Shown here: piece after piece, positions 34,337-50,038 of the stretch
Layout: every line of letters starts with the position of its first letter
Position numbering within the stretch: position 1 is the first letter of the stretch
DNA from: a virus
Lineage: Duplodnaviria > Caudoviricetes
DNA length: 64,000 nt
Reading direction: 5' to 3' (one strand)
IMG/VR virus record: IMGVR_UViG_3300000439_000015
Location: 21,208-85,207 of that record
Program-made: the position numbers and the translations under genes
The notes under the pieces: model-generated
Database searches by the model: none
Told to the model about the DNA's origin: nothing
Seen by the model: only the letters and a program-made list of their open reading frames with translations

Positions 34337-34816
34337 TTATTCGGCGTGAGTGTTGGCAAGCATGCCAGTGGCGGTATCAGCATTGAAGGAAGCGATTGCC
34401 GCCCTCTGAGCCAAAGCCTGAGCCGCTGGGTCTTTCTCGTATGACGCTTGTCCGCCCAATGGGGCGATGTGGTCGAGAATGGCCTCGTGAGCCTGCGCTG
34501 CATCGAGGTGGGCCTGAATCGCACGGGTCGCACGCATGCGGTCACCGTTAGACATTTCACTGCTGTGCTTCAGAACCATGTTCTTGATTCCTTCGGCGGT
34601 GGTGCGGTGAATCTGGGCGAGGGGCTTGGTCAGGCCATTGGAGATGCCGATGCCACGAGCGAAGTTCTGGGCGTTGGTGGAAAGGAAGTGCGAACTGCTC
34701 ACGGCCTTTTCCATGTCTGCACCCGACTGCCACTGGTTGCCGTGGAAAGCGTGGCCCTTGACATCACCCTTAGCCAACTGTACCCACGCAATGATTTCGT
34801 TGTTCAGATTGTCCAT
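34337..34816 (-). CDS. GHxFxGNQ-motif cargo protein (EIxxW leader), Ala/His-rich
   Basis: MDNLNNEIIAWVQLAK-GDVKGHAFHGNQW... Confidence 0.75.
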   Translation of the reverse strand: MDNLNNEIIAWVQLAKGDVKGHAFHGNQWQSGADMEKAVSSSHFLSTNAQNFARGIGISNGLTKPLAQIHRTTAEGIKNMVLKHSSEMSNGDRMRATRAIQAHLDAAQAHEAILDHIAPLGGQASYEKDPAAQALAQRAAIASFNADTATGMLANTHAE

Positions 34817-35352
34817 TAGATACCTTCCGAGAAACTTCCAACGCCAGCGGCTTGCTCGGCGCTACGGACGTTGTTTTCAGCAGCATCAACCTTATCTTGT
34901 GCGTCACTCATACGTTGTCCCGTGGCGTGGGCTGGGTCGGCGTTGGTGATTGTGTCACGGTTCGCCTCAAAGTTTTTGGTGTCACGGGCTGCACTTGCCA
35001 AACCAGCGTGGGCGTTGGCTGCGCTTTCGTGGGCGGTGGCAACATCACGGAGTTTTCCAGCCATTGAGCCAGTCGCCTTGTCTGCCATTGCGTGGTACAT
35101 CTGGGCTTGCTGATTGTGCGAAGCGCTTTGCTGCGTTGAGGTGGCTTCAGCGTTGCGACCTGCGTTCATCATGTCGTTTGCACCCCAGCGGCCTGGGTCT
35201 ACACGACGGGCTGGCTGTGCTGAAGCGCCAGTCGGGATGCCGCCAGTGTGCTGGTTCCCATTGAAGGCATGGCCTGCGGTTTCGTACTTCAAGATTTCAC
35301 CAACCTTGGCCCAGTTTGGGGCAAGTGCGTCTGTTGAGAAAGGGTTTGTCAT
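34816..35352 (-). CDS. GHxFxGNQ-motif cargo protein (FSTDAL leader)
   Basis: MTNPFSTDALAPNWAKVGEILK-YETAGHAFNGNQHTGG... Confidence 0.75.
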   Translation of the reverse strand: MTNPFSTDALAPNWAKVGEILKYETAGHAFNGNQHTGGIPTGASAQPARRVDPGRWGANDMMNAGRNAEATSTQQSASHNQQAQMYHAMADKATGSMAGKLRDVATAHESAANAHAGLASAARDTKNFEANRDTITNADPAHATGQRMSDAQDKVDAAENNVRSAEQAAGVGSFSEGI

Positions 35353-35356
35353 TTGA

Positions 35357-36292
35357 TTACATTCCTTCGTCTGCGCCCGTGGCACTACCTAGGCGTTCGG
35401 CAACCATGCTGGCACCTCGTGCAAGCATGGTGTTGTCACGGAGAATAGGACTTGTTGAGCCGCTTGCGTGTTGTTCGGCAACCCAGTTGTGAAGTTCTGC
35501 GGCGTGGTCGTGGGCGGCGATTGCCGACTTCAGAGCGCCCTGCTTCTCAGGGTTAGTCTCCTTGGCAAGGGCGTTTTTCAGCACTTGGCTGGCAATGCCG
35601 TGCTCGAAGGCTGCTGCACGGTGGGCGTTGGCGATTTGTGCGCCAGTACCACCGTGCTGAACAAGGTCACGAGCGTGCGAGGCAGCCATGAGAGCAGACC
35701 AGCCAGCGCCGTCCCGTCGTACATGGTCAAAGCCCTTGTCGAAGGGGTTTGAGGCGTACTGATTGCCGTGAAACTCGTGGCCCTTTACGTCGCCCTTCGT
35801 CACAAAAGACTTTTCAGCACCAGAGAGGATGACGTTGCCGTCGGTCACGCCTGCATTGCGACCAGACGTTGCCTTCATGGTTGCATCGGCGGCTTTCAGG
35901 GTGTTTTCAGCACTGGGGTTGTCGGCAGCGGCGTAGTGTGCGGCTGCTGCGGCTTCGTGCAACTTGGCGGCACCCTCTTCCATTGCGTATGAACGCCCGT
36001 TGGGGTTGTGGTAACTGGCGACAAGTTGACGCAAGCGCCCTGCCTCTTCGAGGTGCATACGAGCCATGCGGTCATGGGCCATGGTAGAAACGGTTGGCGA
36101 CTTTTTGCCTGCGCTCGCTGCCATCTGCGACGCTCGGTCACGAAGTGAGTTCAGAGCATCCCGTGTTTCACCAGTGGAACGAGCCGTGTATTGGTTCCCG
36201 TTGAAAGCATGGCCTGCCAACTCGTACTTCAGGATTTCACTGGCGGACTTCCAAACTGGAACCAGTGCGTCAGTAGAGAAGGGGTTTGTCAT
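35357..36292 (-). CDS. Two-unit GHxFxGNQ-motif cargo polyprotein
   Basis: MTNPFSTDALVPVWKSASEILK-YELAGHAFNGNQYT... plus internal FVTK-GDVKGHEFHGNQY. Confidence 0.75.
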   Translation of the reverse strand: MTNPFSTDALVPVWKSASEILKYELAGHAFNGNQYTARSTGETRDALNSLRDRASQMAASAGKKSPTVSTMAHDRMARMHLEEAGRLRQLVASYHNPNGRSYAMEEGAAKLHEAAAAAHYAAADNPSAENTLKAADATMKATSGRNAGVTDGNVILSGAEKSFVTKGDVKGHEFHGNQYASNPFDKGFDHVRRDGAGWSALMAASHARDLVQHGGTGAQIANAHRAAAFEHGIASQVLKNALAKETNPEKQGALKSAIAAHDHAAELHNWVAEQHASGSTSPILRDNTMLARGASMVAERLGSATGADEGM

Positions 36293-36302
36293 TATGTTTT
36301 CC

Positions 36303-36734
36303 TCACTTTGGCAGGTCAGCGTTGCCGTAGTGGTTTACCGCAGCCATTGTCTGGTTTACTGCCTTGGAAGCGTCTGTCGCTACGTTCTTGTTGCTGTAGT
36401 CCGCAACCTTGGCCCACGTCTTTTGAGCAGCGAGGTGCGCTTGGGCGAGGGCGTTCAGGTTGCCAGCAACGTCTTTGTAGCCAGTTTCGTTTCGTGCTGC
36501 CATTGCTTTGGCTGCTTCACCACGGTGGTACTCCGCCATGCCCAAAGCGTCTGCACGGTTTGGTGCACCGCCAATACGGTCACTGCCAACTTTGGCTGCT
36601 CGTCGCACAATGTTGTCCGTTCTGCCCGAAGTGAACTGGTTGCCGTGAAAGGGGTGACCATCAACGTCGCCTTTAGCCACGGGGTAGCGAGAGAGTGACT
36701 TGAGTAGTTCGTCGGTGTGGAAGCCAGATGACAC
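36303..36734 (-). CDS. GHxFxGNQ-motif cargo protein
   Basis: MSSGFHTDELLKSLSRYPVAK-GDVDGHPFHGNQFT... Confidence 0.75.
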   Translation of the reverse strand: MSSGFHTDELLKSLSRYPVAKGDVDGHPFHGNQFTSGRTDNIVRRAAKVGSDRIGGAPNRADALGMAEYHRGEAAKAMAARNETGYKDVAGNLNALAQAHLAAQKTWAKVADYSNKNVATDASKAVNQTMAAVNHYGNADLPK

Positions 36735-36916
36735 GAGGTTCTCCTTGTAGGGATTTCTACCTCAGATACTACGCCACGATTTCCTAAACCGATGTTCCAA
36801 AACCCCATTGACGGTGGTGATAAACGGTGCTAGACTTCGCCCGACTGACTTGGGGGCGCTGGACACAACGCCAAGTACATTCACACCGACCCCTGCCGAA
36901 AGGTGGGGGATTCGGT

Positions 36917-37414
36917 TTATTGGGGCCTGTTTGCGTCCCAAAGTGAGGTGAAATGGCCTCGCTCCGCTTCGCCAATGTGCTCCAAGAGCAGGTATCCATC
37001 GAGATGGTCTGTCTCGTGCTGAAAGATGCGAGCGAGCAATCCTTCCCCGTCAATCCTGTACTGGTTCCCGTCAAGGTCAAGGGCCGTCAAGGTCGCTTTG
37101 TACGAGCGGCTGATTTGCCACCCGAACTTGGGCACCGACAAGCATCCTTCGGGCGTGACCTCGATGTCAAGGGGGTCAGTGAAAACCTCTGGGTTGATGG
37201 CGACGTGAGCGCCCGTGCCGTCGCCGCTGTCCCAAACGAACATGCGGTGCGAGTAGCCGATTTGGTTGGCGGCAAGCCCAACACCGAGGTGAAAGTACAT
37301 GGCCTCAACCATCTCGGCGGCAATCATCTTGATGTTGTCTGTGATTTCACTGACCGAGGTCGTGGGGGCTTCCAAAATGGGGTCGCCATAGAAACGCAGG
37401 GCTGGGATGTTCAT
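36917..37414 (-). CDS. def: Peptide deformylase
   Basis: All three PDF motifs present: GVGLAANQIG, EGCLS, HETDHLDG. Confidence 0.95.
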   Translation of the reverse strand: MNIPALRFYGDPILEAPTTSVSEITDNIKMIAAEMVEAMYFHLGVGLAANQIGYSHRMFVWDSGDGTGAHVAINPEVFTDPLDIEVTPEGCLSVPKFGWQISRSYKATLTALDLDGNQYRIDGEGLLARIFQHETDHLDGYLLLEHIGEAERGHFTSLWDANRPQ

Positions 37415-37677
37415 CGTGCGCCCATCTCTCTCTTTGCCTCTTCGAGCAGTTCGGCGGTGAAGTCCTCTGGCGACAGTTCGGTCTTGGCGTGGGCCATCAA
37501 CTTGCCGCAAGCGATGCTGAACGCCCATGTGTACAGGCTGAGTTCCTCGTCGAGGTGCGTCAACTCCTTGCGGTAGCCGAGAACCATCTGGTCGTGCTTG
37601 GCAATCAGCCCTGCCGTCCCAGTGCGCATGGTAGCCAACTTCTCTTCGAGGTCGGCAATCTGCTCCGACTTACGCAC
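37411..37677 (-). CDS. Hypothetical coiled-coil protein
   Basis: 88 aa; overlaps neighbours by 4-8 nt. Confidence 0.6.
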   Translation of the reverse strand: MRKSEQIADLEEKLATMRTGTAGLIAKHDQMVLGYRKELTHLDEELSLYTWAFSIACGKLMAHAKTELSPEDFTAELLEEAKREMGAR

Positions 37678-37822
37678 GGTACTTCTCTGGCACTGGGCCT
37701 GTGTACGGAGCGCCGTTCAGGTCTGAGGTGAACGGGAAACGTGTCGAGCACTGCTGGCACATGACGTAGGTCTTAGCGCCTGCGTTCATCAGAATCCACT
37801 TGTGGAAGGCGCAACTAGCCAT
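37670..37822 (-). CDS. Small Cys/His (Zn-ribbon-like) protein, 50 aa
   Basis: MASCAFHKWILMNAGAKTYVMCQQCSTRFP...; below the track length cut-off; operonic overlaps. Confidence 0.5.
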   Translation of the reverse strand: MASCAFHKWILMNAGAKTYVMCQQCSTRFPFTSDLNGAPYTGPVPEKYRA

Positions 37823-37988
37823 GCTGAACCGTCATGACGTATTTGCTGGCGTTGGCGGTGAACGCCTGCGCCTCTTCCTTCGTGGCGAAGTCGGGCGATG
37901 TCATGACGGTGTAGTAGTAGCCATCACCACCTTGGTAGGTCTTGAAGAAGAACCCGTTGCCATTCCAAATCTCGACGACTTTACTCAT
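37815..37988 (-). CDS. Small hypothetical protein
   Basis: MSKVVEIWNGNGFFFKTYQGG...; TGATG coupling to the upstream gene. Confidence 0.5.
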   Translation of the reverse strand: MSKVVEIWNGNGFFFKTYQGGDGYYYTVMTSPDFATKEEAQAFTANASKYVMTVQHG

Positions 37989-38191
37989 CAAATAAACGCC
38001 TTCATGTCTTGCGCTTCTGCTTCCCATTGCTCTGGTGAACCGAGACGAACGACGTGCAAGCACACGTCCGTGCCGTTCTCCATGAGTTCTGATTCGGTGT
38101 CGGTCAACTCCACGCCTGCGTGGGTTTCGCACACCTGCTGGGTGCAGAACTTGTTGTCAATGCCGTACTGAAGCCACTCATCAAAGGTCAT
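37988..38191 (-). CDS. Small Cys/His hypothetical protein
   Basis: MTFDEWLQYGIDNKFCTQQVCETHAG...DVCLHVVRL. Confidence 0.6.
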   Translation of the reverse strand: MTFDEWLQYGIDNKFCTQQVCETHAGVELTDTESELMENGTDVCLHVVRLGSPEQWEAEAQDMKAFI

Positions 38192-38201
38192 GGCGTTCAC
38201 C

Positions 38202-38735
38202 TTAGCAGCCGTCGGCGTTCCATTCTGGGTGGATTCCGCCATTACGGTTCCAATAGAAGGCGGCGACACGGAACTGGTCTGCGATGCTCGCATCTTGGGC
38301 GTACTGGGCGGTGATGCCAAGGGCGTGAGCGCCGAACTGCCACGTTGGGGGCATGAACTGGAAGATGCCTGCTGCGCCTTCTGGGTTCACCTCACGGTAG
38401 TTGTGGAAGTCCGTGGGGGTCGAGCGAGATTCACGCCACATGACGCAGGTGAAGGCCGCTCGGCTCGGTGGTGGGAGCAAGTCCGTGTAGCCACCAGAGG
38501 GGGCTGTGTGGCTCGCTACGGGCTTTGGCTTGGCTTTGTGGTGAACCACAGGCTTGGCGACGTGAGCGTGCACCACGGGGCGGCTGTTGCCGTACCAGAA
38601 GATGGTAATCATCTTGGGCGTAGTCGTCCGAGCGGCGAGGTGATAGGCCACCTTGGGCGCAGCGTGGAACGTTCCTACGACAAGGGAGACTACGACTGTC
38701 AGTGCGAGGAAGCCACCTCGCACCGTGCCTAGCAC
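38202..38735 (-). CDS. Secreted Rpf-like/lysozyme-fold lytic transglycosylase
   Basis: Hydrophobic N-terminus, Pro/Lys/Val linker, then FTCVMWRES...GAAGIFQFMPPTW...ADQFRVA...HPEW; start codon uncertain. Confidence 0.8.
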   Translation of the reverse strand: MLGTVRGGFLALTVVVSLVVGTFHAAPKVAYHLAARTTTPKMITIFWYGNSRPVVHAHVAKPVVHHKAKPKPVASHTAPSGGYTDLLPPPSRAAFTCVMWRESRSTPTDFHNYREVNPEGAAGIFQFMPPTWQFGAHALGITAQYAQDASIADQFRVAAFYWNRNGGIHPEWNADGC

Positions 38736-38930
38736 GAGCCTGCCTTGGTAGAGGGATAGAACGGTACCGCTATTGGGTTGCTGGACACAACGCACTCCTT
38801 TGGTTGCCCATTGGGGGATGCACCAGTTTACCCGAATGTGACGGATAAGGCAAGTACTAAGCGATTTCCTTGCAAATAAAGGGTTTTGCCCACACCGTCG
38901 AGGTGATAGAAAAAAAACATGCAAAAAGAC

Positions 38931-38960
38931 TTGACAGATGTCACACGGGGGTGCCATACT
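38931..38960 (+). promoter_or_regulatory. Strong sigma70/SigA-type promoter (antisense to the cassette)
   Basis: TTGACA-gatgtcacacgggggtgc(18)-CATACT with TGn extension. Confidence 0.75.
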
Positions 38961-38966
38961 GGTTAG

Positions 38967-39294
38967 GTAAGAAAGCAGCAGTGCCGAGGTGCGCTTGTAA
39001 AGTCCCCACGAGAAAGTGGTCGAGCAAGCCGAAGGCCAGCCTGTGAGCCGTACCACCTGTTTGCGACACGGGCGCATTCAGTAAGGCCGTAGGGAGTTCG
39101 GAGCGAACTACGGCGAGGTGGGTACGGAACTCCTAGTGGGGGTGAGTGTTAGGCGTGAGGAAAAGCGCAAACCACCGAACCGCAAGGGGTAGGGTCGGGC
39201 GCTCGTTGGGAAACGGGTAGTCCGCCAGTGACATCAGTACGGAAAACCAAGGCTACCGAGTTAGAAGTCCCCTCAGCAAAGGCTGGGGGGATTT
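38967..39294 (+). ncRNA. Candidate structured non-coding RNA (~330 nt), family unassigned
   Basis: No credible ORF; bounded by promoter and terminator. Nested helices 38990-38996/39163-39169, 39004-39009/39136-39141, 39049-39058/39116-39126, 39086-39092/39108-39114. Confidence 0.65.
39267..39294 (+). terminator. Intrinsic terminator (possibly bidirectional)
   Basis: gtcccctcagc-aaag-gctgggggat-ttt; convergent with the stop of 39296-40885. Confidence 0.7.
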
Positions 39295-39295
39295 T

Positions 39296-40885
39296 CTATT
39301 TGTAGACCTCGTTCAGCACTTGATAGTGGATTTGGCTTGCCTTGTCGTCGTCGCCTGCCTCGTGCGCCTCTTGCTCTTGGGCGAGCAGTTTGGCAGCCTT
39401 GTCGCTGAGGTGTTCTTCCTTGGGCTTCGTTGCCTTTTGGAACGGGAGCAGGGCGTACTTGGCCCAGATTTCGCCAGCGGTTTTGGAAACGTCGCCTTTT
39501 TGGACTGGGCTTTCCCAAACAACTGCGTCGGGGTTCCAGATTGAGTAGTTCGTGTGGTCTTTGGGCTGCGAAATGTCTTGTTGTGAAACTAGGGTCATCT
39601 TGCCATCTACGTTTGCGGTCTTTCCATCCTCTTCGTTGGTTAGGCCGCTTGTAAATAACTTCGCTCCATCTCTAAGTTTCCCACGGAGTACGGTTCCGCC
39701 CTCACCAGCGTAGGCACGAGCGACTTCTTCGCTATCGGTTGCGTAAACTGCTTTTCCGTCTAGACCGATTTCTTTCTTGCCGCTTAGGGTATCCGAGACT
39801 GCTTGCGAACTTCTTACGCCTCGATAAACGGTTACTCCACTTGCGTCAGTCGTTTCCCACTGATTTCCGTGAAAGACGTGGCCCTGAACGTCGCCCTTTT
39901 GGACGTGCCGCTCTACCATGGACTTCGCCCACGAGTAGCCAGCATCACCACCCCACGCATCCCACGCCACACGTCCGTGCGACGGGTATCCGTGTTCACC
40001 CTGACGGAAGCCTTCTGCCTTCTTGTCGGGCTGGTGACGGTCAAAATACGCCTTCATCCGCTTCAGAGTGTCCAGTGAAATCTGGTGCCCGTTACCGAGG
40101 TCTGACGCACGCTTGCGCCCGACGTTGGTGAACCCTGAGCCAGCCTTGCCGTCGGCAATCCATTCCAATGCTCGCTTAGCGGCCTCTTGTACCCCCTGCG
40201 GCGGAGTGAACGTATCCTTCTTCACCGCAAAGTGGGCAGCGAGGGTTTGGAACACGTCAATAAGGCGGTTCAAGTTGTCAATCATCTGGGCGTACTTGTC
40301 GTCCATGCCGAGTTGGTGAAACTCATCCTGTAGCGCCTCTAGACGGGGCCGTAAGCCTGCCAGCGTCTCCAAGGTCAGTCCTGCGTTCCAAAGGGCTGTG
40401 GCGACCTCTGGGGTGGCTTCACGGACACGAAAGTTGCAGAGAGCGTGGTCAATGCCGACTATTCCACCTTGGGCAAACATCAGGTTCTTGGGACGACGGT
40501 CTGCGTTGGCGGTGATGTAGTCGAACAGGCGTAGGTTTCTGCCTTGGTTATCGTTTGGGTAGCAGTCCTCGCTGCCGAGTTCCAATCCTGACTTGCCGTC
40601 AATGTACGGCATAATCACCATCTTGGCATCGGTTCCCACAAAGCGGCAGTCACGGACGGGGGCGTTCATCGCCTCTCCGACACGGGCGGCGAGATACTCC
40701 TGAGCGGCGAGTATTTCAGCACGGTACAAACGACCCGTCTTGTTGCCGTGCCAGTCCTTCATGTGCTTCTCGACCCCTTCGGAGCCATCAGCAAAGCGAA
40801 CACGGAACATTCCGTCGTTCTGGTTGCCCTTCACAAACATGGGTTCACGAGACACGATGTCCGTGCTGGTGAACGGCACGAACAT
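39296..40885 (-). CDS. Polyvalent cargo protein: HipA/PI3K-like kinase + conserved phage head-associated domain + GHxFxGNQ + ADP-ribosyltransferase-like domain
   Basis: EYLAARVGEAM...FDYITANADRRPKNL...GIDHAL (kinase); PPQGVQEAAKRALEW...AWDAWGGDAGYSWA; VQK-GDVQGHVFHGNQW; VYRG...GKAVYATDSEEVARAYA...YSIWNP (ART-like). Confidence 0.8.
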   Translation of the reverse strand: MFVPFTSTDIVSREPMFVKGNQNDGMFRVRFADGSEGVEKHMKDWHGNKTGRLYRAEILAAQEYLAARVGEAMNAPVRDCRFVGTDAKMVIMPYIDGKSGLELGSEDCYPNDNQGRNLRLFDYITANADRRPKNLMFAQGGIVGIDHALCNFRVREATPEVATALWNAGLTLETLAGLRPRLEALQDEFHQLGMDDKYAQMIDNLNRLIDVFQTLAAHFAVKKDTFTPPQGVQEAAKRALEWIADGKAGSGFTNVGRKRASDLGNGHQISLDTLKRMKAYFDRHQPDKKAEGFRQGEHGYPSHGRVAWDAWGGDAGYSWAKSMVERHVQKGDVQGHVFHGNQWETTDASGVTVYRGVRSSQAVSDTLSGKKEIGLDGKAVYATDSEEVARAYAGEGGTVLRGKLRDGAKLFTSGLTNEEDGKTANVDGKMTLVSQQDISQPKDHTNYSIWNPDAVVWESPVQKGDVSKTAGEIWAKYALLPFQKATKPKEEHLSDKAAKLLAQEQEAHEAGDDDKASQIHYQVLNEVYK

Positions 40886-41866: not shown

Positions 41867-41868
41867 GG

Positions 41869-42512: not shown

Positions 42513-42513
42513 G

Positions 42514-43233: not shown

Positions 43234-43235
43234 GA

Positions 43236-44069: not shown

Positions 44070-44092
44070 GGTTAGCCTTTAGCAACGGAAAC

Positions 44093-44452: not shown

Positions 44453-44454
44453 GA

Positions 44455-45858
44455 TTACCGCCCAGCGGCAGCAGCGGTGTCGGCAGCGTAAGCAGCGTCA
44501 TTCAAGCGAACAACCTCGCCCTCAGCCTGAGCCTTTTCACCGTTGTACAATGAACGGGCCTTGTCAGAGAACTCGGCAACCTTGGACTGCGATGCGTCAC
44601 GGGAGCCACGGTCAGTTTCCTTCTGAAAGGTGTTCTGAATGCCCTTCAGAGCGCCGTGAGCCTTCTGAAAGTGACCAGCGGCTTCTTCGTGCTTGGCAGC
44701 AGCATCGTGCAACTTTCCAGCGGCTTCAAGAGCCTTGGCCTCGGCTACGGCCTTGCGTCCGTTGGCGAGGTGGGTGTCGTGAGCGCCCTGATAACGAGAA
44801 ACGGTCTGCTTCCAGCCTTCACGCTTGCCAGCCATTTCACCACGACTAAAGGTACGCATACCGCCGGTGTGCTGGTTGCCCTCGAAGGGGTGGCCTGGCT
44901 GGGCACCTGAGCGGCCCTTGACACCGTACTTCTCAACCGAGAAGATGTACTCCTGATAGCCAACGGACTTTTGGAACGGGCGGGTCAGCAACTCGTCGGT
45001 TCCGAAGCGGTTAGAGGCGCTAGGCGTGTATGCCTTCTCAATGCCAATCATGTCGTGACCATCACAGGTGGGGCAGCCCTCGTTGGCGTCGAAGCCGAGG
45101 CAGTCGGGGCAGAGAATAACGTCGTACTGAGCATCAAAGTCGGCGTTGGTCTGATTGGCACCCATGGGAGCGCCGAGGTCGGCTGCGTAGGTGTAACCAT
45201 TGGAATCGGTGGGCATGGAAGCGTCCTTTCGGAGAACTGACTTGTTGGTGGGCACTGCGGTGGAAAGCGAAGGTTCCGCCTGCCATGAATCGGGCAAAGC
45301 GTCGGTAGCGCCGAGAGCCTTAGCCTGAGTAATGATGTGCGCCTTGACCGCCTTGGGGTCAGAAGCACGCCCGTAAGACTGAACAGCGTTTTCAAGGTCA
45401 GCACGGGTTTCGATTGGGTACGAACCGTCAGGCATGGCCTTGCCCTTCGAGGCAAGTTCCTGACGCTTGTCGTCCGAGAAGTCACGCTTCAAGATTTCAC
45501 CGTTAGAGGCGGCACGGATGCCAGCAAGGGCGCTCTTAGCAAGGTTCAGTGCTTCAGAAGCGGCCTGTGCAGCCTTGTCAGCGTCACGGTACTCGGCAAT
45601 GGCGTTGTTGTATCCAGTGCGCAGTTGTTCTTTGTTCCAAACCGACTTGGTGATGCTCTCACGGTAGGCAAGTTCGGCAACACGAAGCGTCTCCGTCGCC
45701 TTAGCGAGGCGGAAGTCAGCGTTGTCCTTTTCACCACGAGCGGCAGTCTCGGCAAGAGCCATCTTGCCAATCTGCGACTTGGCAATCTCGGTGGTGTTGT
45801 TGGTCACCGACTGGGAAAAGGAGACAGTCTTTGGTGTGTTGCTAGGAACCTGAATCAT
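44455..45858 (-). CDS. Multi-unit cargo polyprotein (coiled coil + DUF6582-like + CxxC Zn finger + GHxFxGNQ unit)
   Basis: ILK-RDFSDDKRQELASKGKAMPDGSYPI...LPDSW; CPDC...CPTC; internal RFGTDELL...VEK-YGVKGRSGAQPGHPFEGNQHTGG. Confidence 0.75.
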   Translation of the reverse strand: MIQVPSNTPKTVSFSQSVTNNTTEIAKSQIGKMALAETAARGEKDNADFRLAKATETLRVAELAYRESITKSVWNKEQLRTGYNNAIAEYRDADKAAQAASEALNLAKSALAGIRAASNGEILKRDFSDDKRQELASKGKAMPDGSYPIETRADLENAVQSYGRASDPKAVKAHIITQAKALGATDALPDSWQAEPSLSTAVPTNKSVLRKDASMPTDSNGYTYAADLGAPMGANQTNADFDAQYDVILCPDCLGFDANEGCPTCDGHDMIGIEKAYTPSASNRFGTDELLTRPFQKSVGYQEYIFSVEKYGVKGRSGAQPGHPFEGNQHTGGMRTFSRGEMAGKREGWKQTVSRYQGAHDTHLANGRKAVAEAKALEAAGKLHDAAAKHEEAAGHFQKAHGALKGIQNTFQKETDRGSRDASQSKVAEFSDKARSLYNGEKAQAEGEVVRLNDAAYAADTAAAAGR

Positions 45859-45887
45859 AAGTTGATTACCTTTCGCTTCTGGTGAAA

Positions 45888-45909
45888 ATGCTACACCGAG
45901 ATTTGGAAA
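45888..45909 (-). promoter_or_regulatory. Late-type promoter motif
   Basis: Minus strand TTTCCAAAT-ctcggtg-TAGCAT. Confidence 0.6.
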
Positions 45910-45916
45910 ACCTCGG

Positions 45917-46921
45917 TTACTCTTCGCCGTCGGGGTAGGCGATGGCGTACAGAGGGTGGTTAGGCAACAGGTAGCCCTCAGGGGTGGTGTCAGGCTCACC
46001 CTCGAAGTCGTCCTCAGTTGACATGTCCAGCGGCGTGACGGCTGGGTAGTCAGCGTCGGGGTCGCTGTCGCTGTAGTCGGGGCCAGAGTAATCGTGCGAC
46101 GTGTAGTCGTTCATCATCTCTTCAGGGGCAGCCTTAGCGATGCCACCGTTCATTCCAGCAGCCAGAGCAGCCTGACGCAGGTAAGCGTGGGCGGTCTGGT
46201 AAGCGTCGCATGCCATCAGCGCCATCTGCATAGCGGTGGTGGTGTCGCCGTTCTGGTAAGCCTGAGCCGACTGCATCTTGTAGTTGTCACCAGCATCAGC
46301 AGCCTTCTCAGCGGCAATCACGAGGTCGTCCAAGTTGGAATCGCTTGACGATGGGGTGGAATCACTCGACGAGGACGATGAGGAACTGCTGCTCGACGAC
46401 GAAGAGGACGAACTGTCGTCATCACCACTGCCGTCAAACATGAAGCCAGCGTCCTTCTGCATTGAGGCGACGTGCATGGCGTGGTTGTTTGCCTCGACGT
46501 AGTTCTTGTTGCCAGCGTGGGCATCAGCAATAATCTTGGCACTGTTGGCCTGAGCCTCGGCAATGTGCTTAGCCGATTCCGAACGCTCTTCGGCGGTCTT
46601 GGTGGAATCGTTGGCGTGAATCGAAGCGTCATGGGCGGCGTGCATCGGGCCACTGCGGTGGGCATCGGCAGCAAGCGAGTGCAGTTCCGAGGCACGGTTG
46701 TGGGCATCAGCAGCGCCAAGGAAGAAGGAAGCGGCACGGGTGTCGCCAGTTGCGCCTGCGGCGTTGGTCATTGCATCAGCAACGTCGGCGTGCATGGCAG
46801 CGAGGTCGTCGTGATTGGAAGCCTCGGCCTCGTGGTCAACGGTGTCAACCTTGAAGGGTTCGGTGACGGCAGCAGCCTTGGTGAGCCACTGGGCGATTTC
46901 GTTGTTGATGTTGTCTGACAT
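45917..46921 (-). CDS. EIxxW-leader Ala/His-rich acidic protein with poly-Ser linker
   Basis: MSDNINNEIAQWLTK-AA...HDDLAAMH...AADAHNRASELH...poly-S. Confidence 0.7.
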   Translation of the reverse strand: MSDNINNEIAQWLTKAAAVTEPFKVDTVDHEAEASNHDDLAAMHADVADAMTNAAGATGDTRAASFFLGAADAHNRASELHSLAADAHRSGPMHAAHDASIHANDSTKTAEERSESAKHIAEAQANSAKIIADAHAGNKNYVEANNHAMHVASMQKDAGFMFDGSGDDDSSSSSSSSSSSSSSSSSDSTPSSSDSNLDDLVIAAEKAADAGDNYKMQSAQAYQNGDTTTAMQMALMACDAYQTAHAYLRQAALAAGMNGGIAKAAPEEMMNDYTSHDYSGPDYSDSDPDADYPAVTPLDMSTEDDFEGEPDTTPEGYLLPNHPLYAIAYPDGEE

Positions 46922-46931
46922 GGTGGAATCC

Positions 46932-47393
46932 TTATCCTTGGAGTGAGACGGACAACTGCCACGCCCACTTGTTGTGATTGTCAATGCGGTCTGCGAGGAA
47001 GTTTGCGATTCCCTGCTGATTTGCTTGTGTTGCTAAGGCAAATGCCTTATTCAGGCTTGTGAGAACACCTGCGTTTGTTTCGGCAAGAGAGGCTACCAAC
47101 TTCTCGTGGTGATAGCCACTCACTGCGTCGTCCGATACAGAAGCCATGCGAGCCAAGTCCGTCAAGCGGAACGGAGCGAACATGCCCAACTTGCGCAGGT
47201 TCTCAGCCATTGGGTCGAGGGATTCATACACGTCCGTGTAGATTTCCTCGAACTTGGCGTGATACTGGGGGAAGTCGGTGCCGACTACGTTCCAGTGAAA
47301 TCCGTGAGTTCGGTGGTACATCACGGTTGCGTCGGCAAGACAAGTGGCGAGGGCCACCGTCAAGTCTTGCGTCGCATCCTTAGTGATGTCCAT
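46932..47393 (-). CDS. dps: Dps / DNA-binding ferritin-like protein
   Basis: YHRTHGFHWNVVGTDFPQYHAKFEEIY...DPMAENLRKLG...IANFLADRIDNHNKWAWQL. Confidence 0.93.
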   Translation of the reverse strand: MDITKDATQDLTVALATCLADATVMYHRTHGFHWNVVGTDFPQYHAKFEEIYTDVYESLDPMAENLRKLGMFAPFRLTDLARMASVSDDAVSGYHHEKLVASLAETNAGVLTSLNKAFALATQANQQGIANFLADRIDNHNKWAWQLSVSLQG

Positions 47394-47404
47394 GGTGAAC
47401 TACC

Positions 47405-48025
47405 TTACGCAACGTTTGGCGTAGCGATTTGGTTGTTAGCGGCCCCAGAAACACCTGAGAGGGCGTTCGACATGCGTGCGGCCTGAAGTCCGTTGTTGAG
47501 GGTAGATACGGCGGTAGCGGCACGGCTGGCACTGGCGTGCAGTTCGGCGGCATCGCCAGCGGCCTTCATGATTGCACGAGGTGATGCGCCGGTGGCACGC
47601 AACTTCGACAGAACACGCAGGGCGTGACCGGCACGTCCAGCCTCATCACCAGCGTGGTGGGCGGCGTATTCGAGGGTCTTAGCCTGCTGGTGTATTGAGC
47701 GGTCATTGCGGTTCTTGCCGTCGCTGAACTTCGTCTGGGCGGCCTTACCAGCGTGGTAAGCGGCCTCGTTGAAGTGGTAGCGAGCAAGGCTGTGGTTGCC
47801 GTTGGTGTGTGCAGCCAAGGCAGCAGCGAGGTGGGAGTTGGCTGCGTTCAGGTGGTCGTTGCGTCCGTAGTTCTTTTCACCACGAGGATTGTGCGCCATG
47901 GCGTTCTGAATGCCGCCAGTGTTGCCGTTTCCACGGAAAGGGTGACCCATCTCCGGCCCAGAGCCTCGCCCGCCCTTTTCAAGAGTAAGGAGCCATTCTT
48001 GAATGGCGTTGGTGTTGTCGGTCAT
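47405..48025 (-). CDS. GH-motif cargo protein, Ala/His-rich
   Basis: MTDNTNAIQEWLLTLEK-GGRGSGPEMGHPFRGNGNTGG... Confidence 0.7.
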   Translation of the reverse strand: MTDNTNAIQEWLLTLEKGGRGSGPEMGHPFRGNGNTGGIQNAMAHNPRGEKNYGRNDHLNAANSHLAAALAAHTNGNHSLARYHFNEAAYHAGKAAQTKFSDGKNRNDRSIHQQAKTLEYAAHHAGDEAGRAGHALRVLSKLRATGASPRAIMKAAGDAAELHASASRAATAVSTLNNGLQAARMSNALSGVSGAANNQIATPNVA

Positions 48026-48060
48026 GTGCGTTGCCTTTCTAAGCGGAACGTTCTGGTGAA

Positions 48061-48082
48061 ATGCTACCCCTAGATTTAGAAA
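48061..48082 (-). promoter_or_regulatory. Late-type promoter motif
   Basis: Minus strand TTTCTAAAT-ctagggg-TAGCAT. Confidence 0.6.
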
Positions 48083-48102
48083 TCTATGGTTTAGGAACTG
48101 CT

Positions 48103-48582
48103 TTACCCTGCGAGCGCCCGTGCGGTTCTTTCATCCGCCAACTGCGACCTCGTGACCGCAATGACACTGGCTCCGTTGGCGTAATCACCAGCGGTAATAC
48201 GGTTTTCGTGGTTCTTTGCGGTGGTCAGGTGTACTCCGGCAGCGCCTTCGTGTGCTGTTGCTGCTTCTTCTAGAAGTTTTGCCTTTTCCGGTTTGGCAGT
48301 GGTGGCTAGTTCCCGTAGCGCCTTCGCTTGTTCGGCGTGCTGGGCAGAGAGTTCACGGTGCCCCTGTGCACTTGGGTTTTTAGCAAGTTCCTGCGCCCGT
48401 GGAGCAAGCGAGCCGAAGCGACCCGACACTTGGTAGCGGTCTGAGGGTGCTGATGAGCCTGCGCCCTCAGCGTCCGTGTGTTGGTTCCCATGGAAAAGGT
48501 GACCGAAGAAGTCCTTTTCCAATGCTTCCTCGGCCTTGGCAAACTGCACCCATTGCAGGATTTCACTGTCGAGGTTTGACAC
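48103..48582 (-). CDS. GHxFxGNQ-motif cargo protein (EIxxW leader), Ala/His-rich
   Basis: MSNLDSEILQWVQFAK-AEEALEK-DFFGHLFHGNQHT... Confidence 0.75.
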   Translation of the reverse strand: MSNLDSEILQWVQFAKAEEALEKDFFGHLFHGNQHTDAEGAGSSAPSDRYQVSGRFGSLAPRAQELAKNPSAQGHRELSAQHAEQAKALRELATTAKPEKAKLLEEAATAHEGAAGVHLTTAKNHENRITAGDYANGASVIAVTRSQLADERTARALAG

Positions 48583-48590
48583 GATAACCC

Positions 48591-49034
48591 TTAGTTACCG
48601 AACGGTACGTTGACGTACATGCCAGCACGGTATGCGGCATCGCCAATGTCCTCAGCGTGGATGCCCTCTTCTTGACCCTTGATGGTCGTGGTGCCAGAAC
48701 GTGTGTAGGTGCGCTGAACGGTGTAGGTGTCGTTGGGGTGGAGAAGAACGTTTACGCCGTAGCCACGGCTGACGGGAAGGTTCACTCCGACGGTGCGACC
48801 ACCCGAATCACGGAGCGTGTTGACACGTCCGCCAGAGATGCCCAAGATGTTCATTCTACCAATCTGACCAACGGTCTGATTAGCGTCCATCTCACGGAAG
48901 CCGTCGAAGTGAGCGCCAGAGTTTCCGCCCGTGTACTGATTTCCGTTGAAGGCGTGTCCAGCCAACTCGTACTTCGTGACGGCGTAGATTCCCTGACCTT
49001 CAAGCAATGATTCGATGGTGAAAGGATTGTTCAT
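48591..49034 (-). CDS. GHxFxGNQ-motif cargo protein with beta-rich payload
   Basis: MNNPFTIESLLEGQGIYAVTK-YELAGHAFNGNQYTGG...QIGRMNILGISGGR...VNVLLHPNDTYTVQR. Confidence 0.75.
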   Translation of the reverse strand: MNNPFTIESLLEGQGIYAVTKYELAGHAFNGNQYTGGNSGAHFDGFREMDANQTVGQIGRMNILGISGGRVNTLRDSGGRTVGVNLPVSRGYGVNVLLHPNDTYTVQRTYTRSGTTTIKGQEEGIHAEDIGDAAYRAGMYVNVPFGN

Positions 49035-50038
49035 TAGTTTCCGTTCGCCCGTCCGCCCAAGCCCATGGGGTTGTTGGATGCCATAGCAGCAACGTGTGAC
49101 AACGCCTCGGCTTGGTCAAGTTGCGCCGTCTTGTCGGCTGCGGCGTAGGGGGTCTTGCCATCAGCAATGTCTTGGTACGCCTTAGCAGCAGCGAAGTGGC
49201 TTGCGGCGGCGAGTTGAGCACCACGGATGCCATCCTTCACCATCTGACTGTCTTGGTGTCCGCCAGCCTGAGCCTGACGAACCATCTCATTCAGTTCGTT
49301 GCCAAGTTGAGCGTGGCGGTCTGCCATCAGCCTGTAGTTGTCCTGAACGGGGGCGCTATTGCGAATACGGGTGGCGAGTTGGGCCGTCGCCAAGGCACGA
49401 GCGGCGTGGGAGTACTGGTTCCCATGAAACTCGTGGCCCATGACATCGCCCTTGGCAACAGACTTCTTGCCCTTGCAGTCGGGGCAAGTAACGTTTCCAC
49501 CACGAATGGTTCCCTTACCCTTGCAAAGTTTGCAGTCGGCAGCCTTGTTCACCTCATTAGCGGCAGCGGCAGCGTCATGGAAGTCCGCAGCCTTCTGCGC
49601 CATCTTCCATTCAGTTGAGGCAGGTAGAACGACGTTCCTACCGCCACGGCCCTGACCGATGTAGGTGGTCTTGCCGTAGGTGTGCGACTGCGCCTCACGG
49701 TAAGCATCAGCAGCACGGTAGTGTTCGCCCGAACGGGCAAGTTCGTCCGCTTTCAGTGCGGCGAGGGCGGCTGGGCTTTGGATGTGAGCGCCGACGGGAA
49801 CTTCCTTCTGACCGAGGATGCGAGTGGTCAGGGGGCTATTGCCCTTCATTCCACCTTTTACCCACGCTTCGTGGCTCTGGTTGCGAGGCGGGCCTCCGCC
49901 TGCAACCGCCGCACCGCCACGGGATGCTCCCGATGCGCTCGTGTACTGGTTTCCATTGAACGCATGACCTTCAGTCTCATACTTGGCAACCACTGCCTTT
50001 TCAAGCCACGAGGTGATTTCATCGTTGATGTCGGTCAT
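49034..50038 (-). CDS. Two-unit GHxFxGNQ cargo polyprotein with DnaJ-type Zn finger
   Basis: MTDINDEITSWLEK-AVVAK-YETEGHAFNGNQYT; CKLCKGKG...CPDCKGK; VAK-GDVMGHEFHGNQYS. Confidence 0.75.
   Translation of the reverse strand: MTDINDEITSWLEKAVVAKYETEGHAFNGNQYTSASGASRGGAAVAGGGPPRNQSHEAWVKGGMKGNSPLTTRILGQKEVPVGAHIQSPAALAALKADELARSGEHYRAADAYREAQSHTYGKTTYIGQGRGGRNVVLPASTEWKMAQKAADFHDAAAAANEVNKAADCKLCKGKGTIRGGNVTCPDCKGKKSVAKGDVMGHEFHGNQYSHAARALATAQLATRIRNSAPVQDNYRLMADRHAQLGNELNEMVRQAQAGGHQDSQMVKDGIRGAQLAAASHFAAAKAYQDIADGKTPYAAADKTAQLDQAEALSHVAAMASNNPMGLGGRANGN

What the first reader, a model, noticed from the sequence alone, without database searches (positions are those of the whole stretch)
34337..50038. 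Cassette of 14 genes sharing a K-(GD|YE)xxGHxFxGNQ address peptide: candidate capsid-packaged cargo/effector system
Seen in sequence: 16 copies of the motif in 14 ORFs. They are 34337 KGDVKGHAFHGNQW, 34816 KYETAGHAFNGNQH, 35357 KYELAGHAFNGNQY and KGDVKGHEFHGNQY, 36303 KGDVDGHPFHGNQF, 39296 KGDVQGHVFHGNQW, 40886 KYELPGHKFNGNQW, 42114 KGDLKGHVFRGNQH, 43236 KGDFSGHPFRGNQY, 44093 KGDVAGHAFHGNQY, 44455 KYGVK...GHPFEGNQH, 47405 KGG...GHPFRGNGN, 48103 KDFFGHLFHGNQH, 48591 KYELAGHAFNGNQY, and 49034 KYETEGHAFNGNQY and KGDVMGHEFHGNQY. Codons vary synonymously between copies, so the peptide is what is conserved. Each copy precedes a different payload. The block sits between prohead protease and scaffold/capsid, under late-type promoters, and includes MuF. 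Established: T4 internal proteins use a short capsid-targeting sequence cleaved by the head protease, and MuF-linked 'polyvalent' effector domains are delivered from phage heads. Inference: this is a modular address-tag system loading more than a dozen separate proteins into the head for ejection into the host. I know of no description of this motif as a targeting signal.
Basis: partly seen in the sequence, partly recalled or inferred. Interest (0 to 1): 0.93.

Follow-up and report, generated by a model that had tools for sequence, protein, structure and literature searches.

The report
Shared header tag on phage cargo genes
Fourteen neighbouring genes in the head-assembly region of an uncultured 85-kb phage each begin their protein modules with the same short peptide; the same peptide separates the enzyme modules of thousands of giant "polyvalent" proteins in other uncultured phages, so it is most likely an undescribed label for proteins carried in the capsid and cut by the head protease, though its function has not been tested.

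Summary
There are 16 in-frame copies of GH-x-F-x-GN on the minus strand in 14 ORFs, against 0.04 expected by chance. Codons vary synonymously between copies. A 17th copy lies in the same genome outside the window.

The motif is not special to this phage. A profile of it finds 2,224 cluster representatives among 1.84 billion proteins. The best hits are 1,300-3,461 aa long and carry 4-9 copies at domain junctions. Their domains are the known repertoire of phage polyvalent proteins: MuF, ADP-ribosyltransferases, kinases, InPase, Zeta toxin, Acb1.

One fused homologue (P0003, 2,795 aa) holds in a single chain the modules that this window encodes as separate genes, in the same gene neighbourhood. 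The cassette is therefore a polyvalent head-cargo protein broken up into single genes. Each gene has gained one of two conserved N-terminal leaders.

Each phage uses its own variant of the motif. Every complete motif-bearing virus record I tested (5 of 5) encodes an XkdF-type protease.

My best reading is a "cut and carry" module header read by the head machinery, probably the XkdF protease. A pure address tag remains a live rival.

No paper or family library I searched describes the motif. Earlier notes of this scan report the same tag on other DNA.

The parts
52168..53802 (-). Portal protein (Mu-type)
   Evidence: Pfam Portal_Mu PF06074 E=1.7e-33; phrog_113 portal 1.8e-80.
50343..52001 (-). 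552-aa protein with a C-terminal XkdF-type serine protease domain (aa ~413-531), a poly-Ser tract and a Cys-rich region. It is the candidate reader or cutter of the tag.
   Evidence: Pfam Peptidase_S78_2 PF14550 E=3.8e-12. D432, H434, H462 and S526 are invariant in 64 homologues. No strict tag in it or in 12 relatives from the viral loci.
49034..50038 (-). Tagged gene, 334 aa: leader A; tag 1 (KYE type, G of GH at aa 24); CxxC..CxxC zinc-ribbon-like payload; tag 2 (KGD type, aa 201); helical payload
   Evidence: Weak zinc-ribbon Pfam hits.
48591..49034 (-). Tagged gene, 147 aa: leader B, tag at aa 26 (KYE type), unassigned payload
   Evidence: No Pfam or PHROG hit.
48103..48582 (-). Tagged gene, 159 aa: leader A, variant tag (EKDFF-GHLFHGNQH) at aa 27, His/Ala helical payload
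   Evidence: Member of the helical family by HMM.
47405..48025 (-). Tagged gene, 206 aa: leader A, variant tag with a KGG-GSG insert and GNGN ending at aa 27, helical payload
   Evidence: The same KGG..GSG variant occurs in other phages (P0067, P0074, P0163).
46932..47393 (-). Dps/ferritin-like protein, with no tag and no leader, conserved inside the cargo block of relatives
   Evidence: Pfam Ferritin PF00210 E=1.7e-15. 65-75% identical copies at the same place in 8 viral loci. Also next to the fused protein P0003. A ferritin-XkdF fusion exists (P0263).
45917..46921 (-). Acidic, poly-Ser protein with leader A but no GH tag. The likely start is the ATG at 46921, not the TTG at 46984.
44455..45999 (-). 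Tagged gene, up to 514 aa (start uncertain; relatives align from aa 31-48): large N-terminal part, internal variant tag at aa 369, His/Ala helical tail
44093..44452 (-). Tagged gene, 119 aa: leader B, tag at aa 25, short helical payload
43236..44069 (-). Tagged gene, 277 aa: leader A, small conserved domain (phrog_6439), internal tag at aa 89, helical module, C-terminal DUF5872
   Evidence: Pfam DUF5872 E=2e-8. phrog_6439 4.8e-7. N-terminal part 59-80% identical in many viral loci.
42514..43233 (-). Minimal MuF-like head protein with leader A and no GH tag
   Evidence: Pfam Phage_Mu_F E=0.001, below the cut-off. PHROG head/portal families to 6e-8. 37% identical to the MuF region of P0003.
42114..42512 (-). 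Tagged gene, 132 aa: leader B, tag at aa 19, Cys-containing payload
   Evidence: 53-58% homologues in 4 viral loci.
40886..41866 (-). Tagged gene, 326 aa: short leader B-like, tag at aa 16 (KYE type), kinase-like payload
   Evidence: 30% identical to the Pfam-annotated PI3_PI4-kinase region of P0003 (E=2.7e-15). HipA_2 only at E=0.0075.
39296..40885 (-). Tagged gene, 529 aa: leader B with a collapsed 'FVKGNQ'; kinase-like domain; phrog_2859 head-associated domain (aa 222-337); tag at aa 335; unassigned C-terminal module
   Evidence: phrog_2859 2.8e-46. 57% identical to P0003 aa 17-418. PI3_PI4_kinase only at E=0.003. The C-terminal module has no Pfam hit, so the ART proposed by a first-stage note is not confirmed.
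36735..39295 (-). Untagged insert that splits the cassette: non-coding structured stretch, secreted transglycosylase-like gene, small genes, peptide-deformylase-like gene, bounded by strong hairpins
   Evidence: Sequence read. Hairpins at 39264-39295 and 36890-36909. No motif.
36303..36734 (-). Tagged gene, 143 aa: leader B, tag at aa 25, His/Ala helical payload
   Evidence: Shine-Dalgarno-like AAGGAG before the GTG start.
35357..36292 (-). Tagged gene, 311 aa: leader B, tag 1 (KYE) at aa 27, helical module, tag 2 (KGD) at aa 171, helical module
   Evidence: Both modules are in the helical family.
34816..35352 (-). Tagged gene, about 178 aa from the ATG at 35352: leader B, tag (KYE), His/Ala helical payload
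34337..34816 (-). Tagged gene, 159 aa: leader A, tag at aa 21, helical payload
31556..32371 (-). Probable scaffolding protein (acidic, Ala-rich, helical)
   Evidence: phrog_13547 7.6e-48, function unknown. Position and composition. The function is inferred.
30815..31552 (-). Ser/Thr-rich cement- or decoration-like head protein (PHROG calls it scaffolding)
   Evidence: phrog_673 2.8e-14. Pfam Phage_cement_2 E=3e-4, below the cut-off.
29810..30796 (-). Major capsid protein
   Evidence: phrog_1005 1.5e-96. 52% identical to the capsid proteins of Arthrobacter phages Ottawa and Kharcho.

Best explanation
The cassette is the broken-up (one module per gene) form of a phage 'polyvalent' head-cargo protein. 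Such proteins are sets of effector modules made late, carried in the capsid and presumably injected with the DNA.

The shared peptide has the consensus hydrophobic-x-K-G-D-x-x-G-H-x-F-[H/R]-G-N-Q-[Y/W], followed by a Gly-rich stretch. It is the conserved header of each module. It lies in a flexible segment and is read in trans by a phage-encoded head component.

The most likely reader is the XkdF-type prohead protease encoded next to the portal gene. I propose that it binds the invariant GH-x-F-x-GNQ part and cuts just upstream, around the phage-specific residues at -7 to -4. In fused proteins this separates the modules inside the procapsid. In the single-module genes of this window it removes the N-terminal leader (type A 'EI..W' or type B 'FSTDALL'). 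The leader would then be the part that brings the protein into the assembling head, as the capsid-targeting sequence of T4 does.

Shown here: the motif, its selection at the peptide level, its spread, its junction and N-terminal positions, orthology between the split genes and a fused protein, phage-specific variants, and co-occurrence with XkdF.

For: 1. The motif is real and selected as a peptide. There are 16 copies against 0.04 expected, with synonymous codon variety.

2. It is a module header of polyvalent proteins.
- A motif profile finds 2,224 proteins at E<=1e-3 among 1.84 billion representatives. The top hits are 1,300-3,461 aa with 4-9 copies.
- The median spacing between copies is 216 aa, and the last copy is followed by about one domain.
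- Among 65 motif-bearing proteins, Pfam finds MuF, ART-PolyVal, ADPrib_exo_Tox, PI3_PI4 kinase, InPase, Zeta toxin, 2H ligase, GNAT, Acb1 and ParB.
- In L043 an ART-PolyVal domain (aa 301-442) lies exactly between two tags, at aa 267 and 456.

3. The split genes match a fused protein. The 529-aa gene is 57% identical to P0003 aa 17-418. The MuF-like gene is 37% identical to aa 1322-1430. The 326-aa kinase-like gene is 30% identical to aa 2553-2729. P0003 lies between ferritin/DUF5872 genes and a PDDEXK exonuclease plus capsid-sized genes, the same order as in the window.

4. The context is the head module. The block lies between portal/XkdF and scaffold/capsid, and relatives keep the same order.

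5. A trans-acting, phage-specific reader is implied. 111 of 128 multi-copy proteins are uniform for K versus non-K at position -5 (shuffled mean 28, largest 43). The variants are K, L, F, E, H and A.

6. There is a link to XkdF.
- PF14550 is present in 10 of 15 motif-bearing IMG/VR records and in 5 of 5 that are at least 90% complete.
- Six of 120 XkdF-domain homologues carry the tag. In five of them it starts about 20 aa after the protease domain.
- A protease-like domain in L003 is followed by a tag at aa 182.

7. The leaders are families of their own. Types A and B recur on unrelated proteins of many contigs, and they head the untagged MuF-like and 45917-46921 genes here. Shine-Dalgarno-like sites support the starts.

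8. There is precedent from papers. A T4 capsid-targeting sequence directs foreign proteins into the capsid, and the title of the original paper says it permits proteolytic processing. The N-terminal 30 residues of P1 DarB, the prototype polyvalent protein, suffice to load a reporter into capsids (both in PMC9024508).

9. The motif is virus-specific. The viral collection gave at least 119 stretches, many with several copies. 596 billion bases of cellular genomes gave 13 single hits, of which 3 look genuine, all on short MAG contigs.
Against: - No experiment or model places the tag in the protease, or anywhere else.
- In AlphaFold2 models the tag is disordered when it follows an XkdF domain in the same chain (pLDDT 33-39). 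As an isolated 31-mer with 150 aligned copies it has no secondary structure.
- A conserved 14-residue site is much longer than known prohead-protease sites.
- The residue just before G-D varies between phages (K, L, F, E, H, A). Where it is L or A, the basic residue moves to -7. That fits a docking strand better than a fixed P1 specificity.
- Many giant proteins start with only 5-8 residues before the tag. Cutting these off brings no obvious gain, which suggests the tag itself is needed on each module.
- Five of the 15 records lacked XkdF. All five are incomplete, and one has another protease-like domain. The base rate of XkdF among viral contigs was not measured.
- The window's own XkdF protein and its relatives carry no strict tag.
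- Some tagged genes lie far from the head genes: the 17th copy in this genome, and an array about 27 kb from the portal in IMG/VR record 3300032236_001318.
Confidence: 0.5

Rival explanations
1. Pure address or docking tag. The peptide binds a site inside the procapsid, on the capsid inner face, the scaffold, the portal or MuF. Each module is loaded by its own tag and no cleavage is needed.
For: - Every separately encoded module keeps the tag, although a single-module protein needs no cut site.
- Giant proteins often start with the tag after only 5-8 residues.
- Basic and hydrophobic residues swap between -7 and -5, and residue -3 covaries with +4 (GD with H, GE with R, YE with N; Fisher p=4e-17). 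This looks like a bound or folded strand rather than a scissile site.
- Phage-specific variants fit a co-evolving receptor.
Against: - One tag would be enough for a fused protein, yet tags sit at nearly every junction.
- MuF, the domain expected to anchor such proteins at the portal, is in the same chain in P0003.
- The leaders are conserved on their own and also head untagged head proteins.
- No binding partner was identified.
Confidence: 0.22
2. The tag works after or during injection. It might be a handle that leads each module through the portal and tail channel. Or it might be a site read in the host cell, for example by a host protease or chaperone that frees or refolds the modules.
For: - The tag always lies in a flexible Gly-rich segment at the N-terminal side of a module.
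- The payloads are host-directed enzymes: ARTs, kinases and the anti-CBASS protein Acb1.
- Iyer et al. proposed that polyvalent proteins may be processed into units once inside the host (PMC5512222).
Against: - Variants differ between phages within one protein family and go with the phage rather than an evident host group.
- The strong tie to XkdF and to head genes is not needed under this reading.
- There is no direct evidence.
Confidence: 0.1
3. Self-acting chemistry. The invariant Asn, Gln and His (with Lys or Asp upstream) perform autocleavage at Asn, or form an isopeptide crosslink to the capsid or to another module.
For: G, H, F, G and N are invariant and Q is nearly invariant. Asn-dependent autocleavage and Lys-Asn crosslinks are known in virus capsids (from my own knowledge, not tested here).
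Against: - Lys at -5 is replaced by L, F, E, H or A in whole phage lineages.
- A 14-residue peptide predicted to be disordered has no fold to support catalysis.
- No similarity to any solved structure sequence.
Confidence: 0.05
4. A passive linker, or a DNA-level shuffling junction that eases the exchange of modules, with no specific reader.
For: The tags mark the places where modules are exchanged, fused and split between phages.
Against: - Codons vary synonymously while the peptide is kept. Core nucleotide identity is only 71% on average, too low for a recombination site.
- Invariant residues and covarying positions are not expected of a passive linker.
- The tag is kept at the N-terminus of single-module genes.
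Confidence: 0.04

Closest known systems
Phage-type polyvalent proteins (Iyer, Burroughs, Anand, de Souza, Aravind 2017, J Bacteriol; PMC5512222), prototype P1 DarB
   Same: - Same domain repertoire in the motif-bearing proteins: MuF, ART-PolyVal, InPase, ParB, Zeta toxin, 2H, GNAT.
- Same context next to virion genes.
- Same proposed fate: packaged, injected, possibly processed into units.
- P1 DarB has an N-terminal 30-residue capsid-targeting signal (PMC9024508).
   Different: - That paper proposes a metallopeptidase (MPTase) domain as the processing device. A text search of it finds no junction or header motif.
- Here the junctions carry a conserved peptide, and the associated protease is XkdF-type.
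- In this window the protein is split into 14 or more genes, each with a leader.
T4 capsid-targeting sequence of internal proteins IPI-III and Alt, removed by the gp21 prohead protease (Mullaney and Black 1996, as cited in PMC9024508)
   Same: A short N-terminal leader on otherwise unrelated head-carried proteins, followed by a processing site. The cargo is anti-host or host-modifying enzymes.
   Different: - No sequence similarity.
- The protease family differs (XkdF/S78_2, not gp21/S77).
- The conserved element here is a 14-residue peptide downstream of the leader that also recurs inside proteins. T4 has only a short N-terminal leader ending at a short cleavage site (from my own knowledge).
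- Function here is untested.
   Same: MuF head protein linked to effector or toxin modules delivered from the capsid. MuF is present in fused homologues (P0003) and, as a minimal gene, in the window.
   Different: - Those have one MuF domain and one C-terminal toxin in prophages.
- Here there are many modules with a header tag.
- The tag is essentially absent from 185,579 cellular genomes.
- MuF stands alone in the window.
Encapsulin cargo-loading peptides
   Same: A short peptide that marks diverse cargo (including ferritin-like proteins) for an HK97-fold shell.
   Different: - Encapsulin tags are mostly C-terminal and unrelated in sequence.
- The shell there has no portal or tail.
- Here the ferritin-like gene is the one block member without tag or leader.

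Membership tests
Phage-type polyvalent proteins (Iyer et al. 2017) | Several (2-15) unrelated effector domains in one polypeptide | tested here: inconclusive
   Most window genes carry one module. Five carry two or three (39296-40885, 43236-44069, 44455-45999, 35357-36292, 49034-50038). Orthologous modules are fused in P0003, 2,795 aa with 8 tags.
Phage-type polyvalent proteins (Iyer et al. 2017) | Characteristic domain repertoire (ART, MuF, InPase, ParB, Zeta, 2H, GNAT ...) | tested here: met
   Met for motif-bearing proteins in general. In the window itself only weak MuF and kinase hits, plus DUF5872.
Phage-type polyvalent proteins (Iyer et al. 2017) | Encoded among virion (portal-terminase type) genes | tested here: met
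   Between portal/XkdF (50343-53802) and scaffold/capsid (29810-32371).
Phage-type polyvalent proteins (Iyer et al. 2017) | Packaged in the capsid and delivered to the host | not testable with these tools
   Needs virion proteomics or reporter assays.
T4-type capsid-targeting sequence system | Short N-terminal leader shared by unrelated head-internal proteins | tested here: met
   Leaders A and B are on 15 block genes (7 of type A, 8 of type B; 13 of these 15 carry the tag) and on unrelated proteins of many contigs.
T4-type capsid-targeting sequence system | Leader removed by the prohead protease at a defined site | not testable with these tools
Monomer models give no docking.
T4-type capsid-targeting sequence system | gp21-type (S77) protease and sequence-related leader | tested here: not met
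   The protease domain is XkdF, PF14550. The leaders do not resemble the T4 sequence. So this may work like the T4 system, but it is not a member.
MuF (PF04233) effector fusions | MuF domain over the Pfam threshold, fused to a C-terminal effector | tested here: not met
   The window MuF-like gene scores 20.3 bits against a cut-off of 29.6 and has no effector fused. In the fused form P0003, MuF lies mid-protein.
Encapsulin cargo-loading peptide | Tag on cargo of a portal-less HK97-fold nanocompartment, usually C-terminal | tested here: not met
   The genome has portal and capsid genes and two ORFs of 1,349 and over 2,148 aa that look like tail genes by size and position (family not tested). The tag is N-terminal or internal and never C-terminal in the window.

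The most novel reading that the evidence does not exclude
The GH-x-F-x-GNQ header is a general, portable 'load, cut and deliver' signal of a very large group of uncultured, mostly virulent phages. Any protein module that carries it, preceded by a short leader or an upstream module, would be taken into the procapsid, freed by the XkdF protease and injected. Injected phage effectors, including anti-defence enzymes such as Acb1, could then be read off from sequence alone. The tag could also be used to load foreign proteins into capsids.
Probability: 0.35. Interest if true: 0.85.

Novelty: new variant of a known kind. Interest (0 to 1): 0.72.

Why it matters
Proteins carried in phage heads and injected with the DNA act before any phage gene is expressed. 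They counter restriction, CBASS and other defences, or take over host machinery. They are hard to recognise from sequence. Known targeting signals (T4, P1 DarB) are specific to one phage.

A conserved header found in thousands of proteins would give three things:
- a sequence-only marker for candidate injected effectors in metagenomes;
- a natural catalogue of module boundaries in polyvalent proteins;
- a testable protease-substrate or receptor-tag pair, and possibly a tool for loading cargo into capsids.

This window is a useful specimen because the modules are already separated into small genes. Each has a leader and one tag, which makes single-protein tests simple.

Tried and rejected
No binding test was possible.
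- AlphaFold2 of P0209 (phrog_2859 domain, XkdF, tag, tail) folds the domains well. The tag region has pLDDT 33-39, so there is no sign of docking within the chain.
- AlphaFold2 of the 31-residue tag with 150 aligned copies gives mean pLDDT 70 and no secondary structure. My beta-hairpin idea, drawn from the covariation, is not supported by the model.
- Foldseek of the P0209 model against the PDB gave nothing at E<=0.001.
- The tag profile against PDB sequences gave no hit at E<=10.
- Pfam and PHROGs have no family covering the tag.
- Literature searches for the motif strings, for 'GNQ motif', for XkdF cleavage and for capsid-targeting plus cargo found nothing that describes the tag. Iyer et al. 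2017 contains no junction or leader motif.
- Cultured phages:
  - megablast of the head region found no match;
  - tblastn with a tagged protein or with P0003 found only domain-level or insignificant matches;
  - the portal-to-capsid regions of Arthrobacter phages Laroye and Ottawa lack the tag;
  - so do the fetched regions around the phrog_2859 matches of Actinomycetia phage DSL-LC01 and Vibrio phage 1.214.O.
- A degenerate tag-like stretch in the window's XkdF protein (IAKGLADVEHPF) is absent at that position from all but its closest relatives, so I treat it as chance.
- The promoter and terminator scan was not above shuffles, so the 'late promoter' claim stays untested.
- The ART assignment for the C-terminal module of 39296-40885 (from a first-stage note) has no Pfam support.

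Full report
**What is in the window.**
The window is bases 21208-85207 of a single-contig virus record of 85,207 bases with 55.8% G+C. Nearly all long ORFs are on the minus strand. A WhiB-like gene (53792-54163) points to an actinobacterial host. So does a capsid protein 52% identical to those of Arthrobacter phages Ottawa and Kharcho.

Read in the direction of transcription, the head module runs as follows:
- portal (52168-53802; Pfam Portal_Mu 1.7e-33);
- a 552-aa protein whose C-terminus is an XkdF-type serine protease domain (50343-52001; PF14550 3.8e-12);
- the block in question (50038 down to 34337);
- a few regulatory genes and an exonuclease gene;
- a probable scaffold (31556-32371);
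- a cement-like protein (30815-31552);
- the major capsid protein (29810-30796).

**The observation.**
The degenerate DNA pattern gives 16 matches against 0.04 expected from shuffles. Glycine, phenylalanine, histidine, asparagine and glutamine codons all vary between copies, and the mean nucleotide identity of the core is 71%. The peptide is what is conserved, not the DNA. The whole genome holds a 17th copy at genome position 2915-3310, among non-structural genes outside the window.

**Anatomy in the window.**
Twelve of the 16 copies lie 16-27 residues from a start codon, once the start of 34816-35385 is moved to its ATG at 35352. Most of these starts are preceded by a Shine-Dalgarno-like site. 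Five of the 16 copies are internal, at aa 89, 171, 201, 335 and 369.

Two families of N-terminal leader precede the tag. Type A is M-x-D-x-N-x-E-I-x-x-W-hydrophobic-x-x-A-K. Type B is M-x-N-P-F-S-T-D-A-L-L and variants. Leader A also heads two block genes without the tag, the MuF-like gene (42514-43233) and 45917-46921.

There are two local forms of the tag. K-G-D always goes with F-[H/R]-G-N-Q. K-Y-E always goes with F-N-G-N-Q.

The payloads are not all different.
- At least six modules form one His/Ala-rich helical family, by blastp and a small HMM.
- Two are paralogous kinase-like domains.
- Others are a zinc-ribbon-like module, a DUF5872 tail and a phrog_2859 head-associated domain.

A Dps/ferritin-like gene (46932-47393) sits in the block with neither leader nor tag. 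The block is split by an untagged insert (36735-39295), bounded by strong hairpins.

**The motif elsewhere.**
An exact degenerate DNA pattern for K-x-[D/E]-x-x-G-H-x-F-x-G-N-Q found at least 119 stretches in IMG/VR. Many stretches hold 3-10 or more same-strand copies.

Over 248 distinct copies the consensus is [V/I/L]-x-K-G-D-x-x-G-H-[P/E/A]-F-[H/R]-G-N-Q-[Y/W]-T-x-G-x-G-G.

A 31-column profile was searched against 1.84 billion representative proteins. It found 2,224 proteins at E<=1e-3, 457 at <=1e-10 and 79 at <=1e-30. The best are 1,300-3,461 aa with 4-9 copies. The median spacing between copies is 216 aa. Seventy of the top 150 begin with a 5-45-residue leader followed directly by the tag.

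The same pattern found only 13 single matches in 596 billion bases of 185,579 cellular genomes, close to my own chance estimate of about nine. Three look genuine, and all three are on short MAG contigs. The tag therefore belongs to viruses that are rarely, if ever, seen as prophages.

**What the tagged proteins are.**
Pfam on 65 motif-bearing proteins gives MuF (5), ART-PolyVal (4), PI3_PI4 kinase (4), DUF5872 (3), ADPrib_exo_Tox (3), topoisomerase I (2), InPase, Acb1, XkdF, Zeta toxin, 2H ligase, GNAT, PARP and HipA_2. This is the repertoire of the phage-type polyvalent proteins of Iyer et al. 2017 (PMC5512222).

In L043 an ART-PolyVal domain (aa 301-442) lies exactly between tags at aa 267 and 456.

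P0003 (2,795 aa, 8 tags) contains MuF, an ADP-ribosyltransferase and a kinase. Its segments match window genes:
- aa 17-418 are 57% identical to the window's 529-aa gene;
- aa 1322-1430 are 37% identical to the window's MuF-like gene;
- aa 2553-2729 are 30% identical to the 326-aa kinase-like gene.

P0003's neighbours are ferritin, DUF5872, a PDDEXK exonuclease and capsid-sized genes, in the same order as in the window.

About half of the IMG/VR loci are relatives of this phage (portal 39-100% identical, capsid 50-98%). They keep the same cargo genes between portal/protease and capsid.

The cassette is thus a polyvalent protein taken apart into single genes, and the tag is the header of each module.

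**Evidence on how the tag is read.**
(a) Variants by phage. In 111 of 128 proteins with three or more copies, all copies agree on K versus non-K at position -5 (shuffled mean 28, largest 43). Whole proteins use L, F, E, H or A instead. Either one phage-specific reader or concerted evolution within a protein would give this pattern.

(b) Covariation over 743 distinct copies.
- G-D goes with H at +4 (63%).
- G-E goes with R (84%).
- Y-E goes with N (7 of 7). Fisher p=4e-17 for GD/GE against H/R.
- Where -5 is L or A, -7 is R or K instead of hydrophobic.

The copies are related by descent, so these numbers overstate independence. They still suggest a defined bound or folded conformation.

(c) Link to XkdF.
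- PF14550 is found in 10 of 15 motif-bearing IMG/VR records that showed no blast match to the window's proteins. It is in all 5 of those that are at least 90% complete.
- In six of the ten records, an exact-pattern tag lies within about 7 kb of the XkdF gene.
- Six of 120 homologues of the XkdF domain carry the tag. In five it begins about 20 residues after the protease domain.
- In L003 a protease-like N-terminal domain is followed by a tag at aa 182.

The base rate of XkdF among viral contigs was not measured.

(d) Structure. AlphaFold2 places the tag in a disordered linker, as expected of a short linear motif and uninformative about partners.

**Weighing the readings.**
A pure address tag does not explain why fused proteins carry a tag at nearly every junction. 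A pure cleavage site does not explain why single-module genes keep it, or why giant proteins start with it after a handful of residues.

The reading that fits both is a module header that is recognised, probably by the XkdF protease, and cut just upstream. Each freed module would then start with the conserved part, and the leader or the upstream module would be removed.

The leaders are conserved families found on unrelated proteins of many contigs. They are the better candidate for the targeting part. [quoted passage not shown]

I give this reading about 0.5. The others: docking tag without cleavage about 0.22; a role during or after injection about 0.1; self-acting chemistry 0.05; a passive or recombination junction 0.04. 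None of encapsidation, cleavage or ejection has been shown.

**Novelty.**
Polyvalent proteins, MuF-linked effectors and capsid-targeting leaders are known. The header peptide, its two leaders, its tie to XkdF-type proteases and the fully broken-up form seen here are not described in any paper or family library I could search.

The library lacks most subscription journals, so this is absence in what was searched, not proof of absence.

Earlier notes of this scan report the same K-GD..GH.F.GNQ tag, or diverged forms of it, on other genomes and came to similar readings. These are unchecked AI notes, not independent evidence. I re-derived the points I use here.

Noticed in passing
window 54504-54974 (minus strand): An SSB-like protein (OB-fold N-terminus, acidic ...DEEPF tail) has a tag look-alike, KPFIGNQHTNG, in its disordered C-terminal linker. 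It may be chance.
   Followed up: partly
genome G000:C1:2915-3310, outside the window (minus strand): A 17th tagged gene (131 aa, leader B, KGDLL-GHIFHGNQY, His-containing helical payload) lies among non-structural genes about 50 kb from the head block. Tagged genes are therefore not confined to the head module.
   Followed up: partly
window 46932-47393; also P0263 and L124:576-1022: A Dps/ferritin-like gene is a conserved member of the cargo block in this phage lineage but has no leader or tag. In another phage, ferritin is fused directly to an XkdF domain (P0263). This suggests that it too is a head-internal protein.
   Followed up: partly
homologues of window 50343-52001 (P0153-P0272): The XkdF domain of this lineage is fused to many different partners: Zeta toxin with AAA_33, 2H/2'-5' RNA ligase, ferritin, DUF5872. 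These include genes annotated 'RNA ligase' in the cultured Arthrobacter phages Salgado and Ottawa. The domain may itself serve as a vehicle that carries cargo into the capsid, not only as the maturation protease.
   Followed up: partly
window 36735-39295: A 2.5-kb untagged insert splits the cargo block. It holds about 330 nt of non-coding, hairpin-rich sequence after a strong hairpin (39264-39295); a gene for a secreted transglycosylase/Rpf-like protein (about 38202-38790); several small ORFs; and a gene with the EGCLS and QHETDH motifs of peptide deformylase (36917-37410). A second hairpin at 36890-36909 closes it.
   Followed up: no
window 39296-40885, aa 222-337; P0178, P0201, P0209, P0230; cultured phages: The phrog_2859 domain (motif ...AWDAWGGDAG..W) recurs just N-terminal to XkdF domains. 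In cultured phages (Roseobacter CRP phages, Synechococcus S-CBS1/3, Vibrio 1.214.O, haloviruses, DSL-LC01) it lies in or next to portal, protease or capsid genes. It is an uncharacterised domain of the head module.
   Followed up: partly
window 50343-52001 (aa ~200-236) and 45917-46984 (aa ~190-207): Long poly-serine tracts in two proteins of the head block.
   Followed up: no
window about 21400-27100 (within 24419-27811 and downstream ORFs): Collagen-like G-x-Q triplet repeats (for example GFQGNQG) in large genes downstream of the capsid gene, probably tail-fibre genes. They produce spurious F.GNQ matches.
   Followed up: no
window 40829-40846 (aa 14-19 of 39296-40885): The 529-aa protein starts with a leader B that runs into 'FVKGNQ', a collapsed form of the tag lacking the GD..GH.F part. 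'VQKGD' without a GH core recurs near its C-terminus.
   Followed up: no
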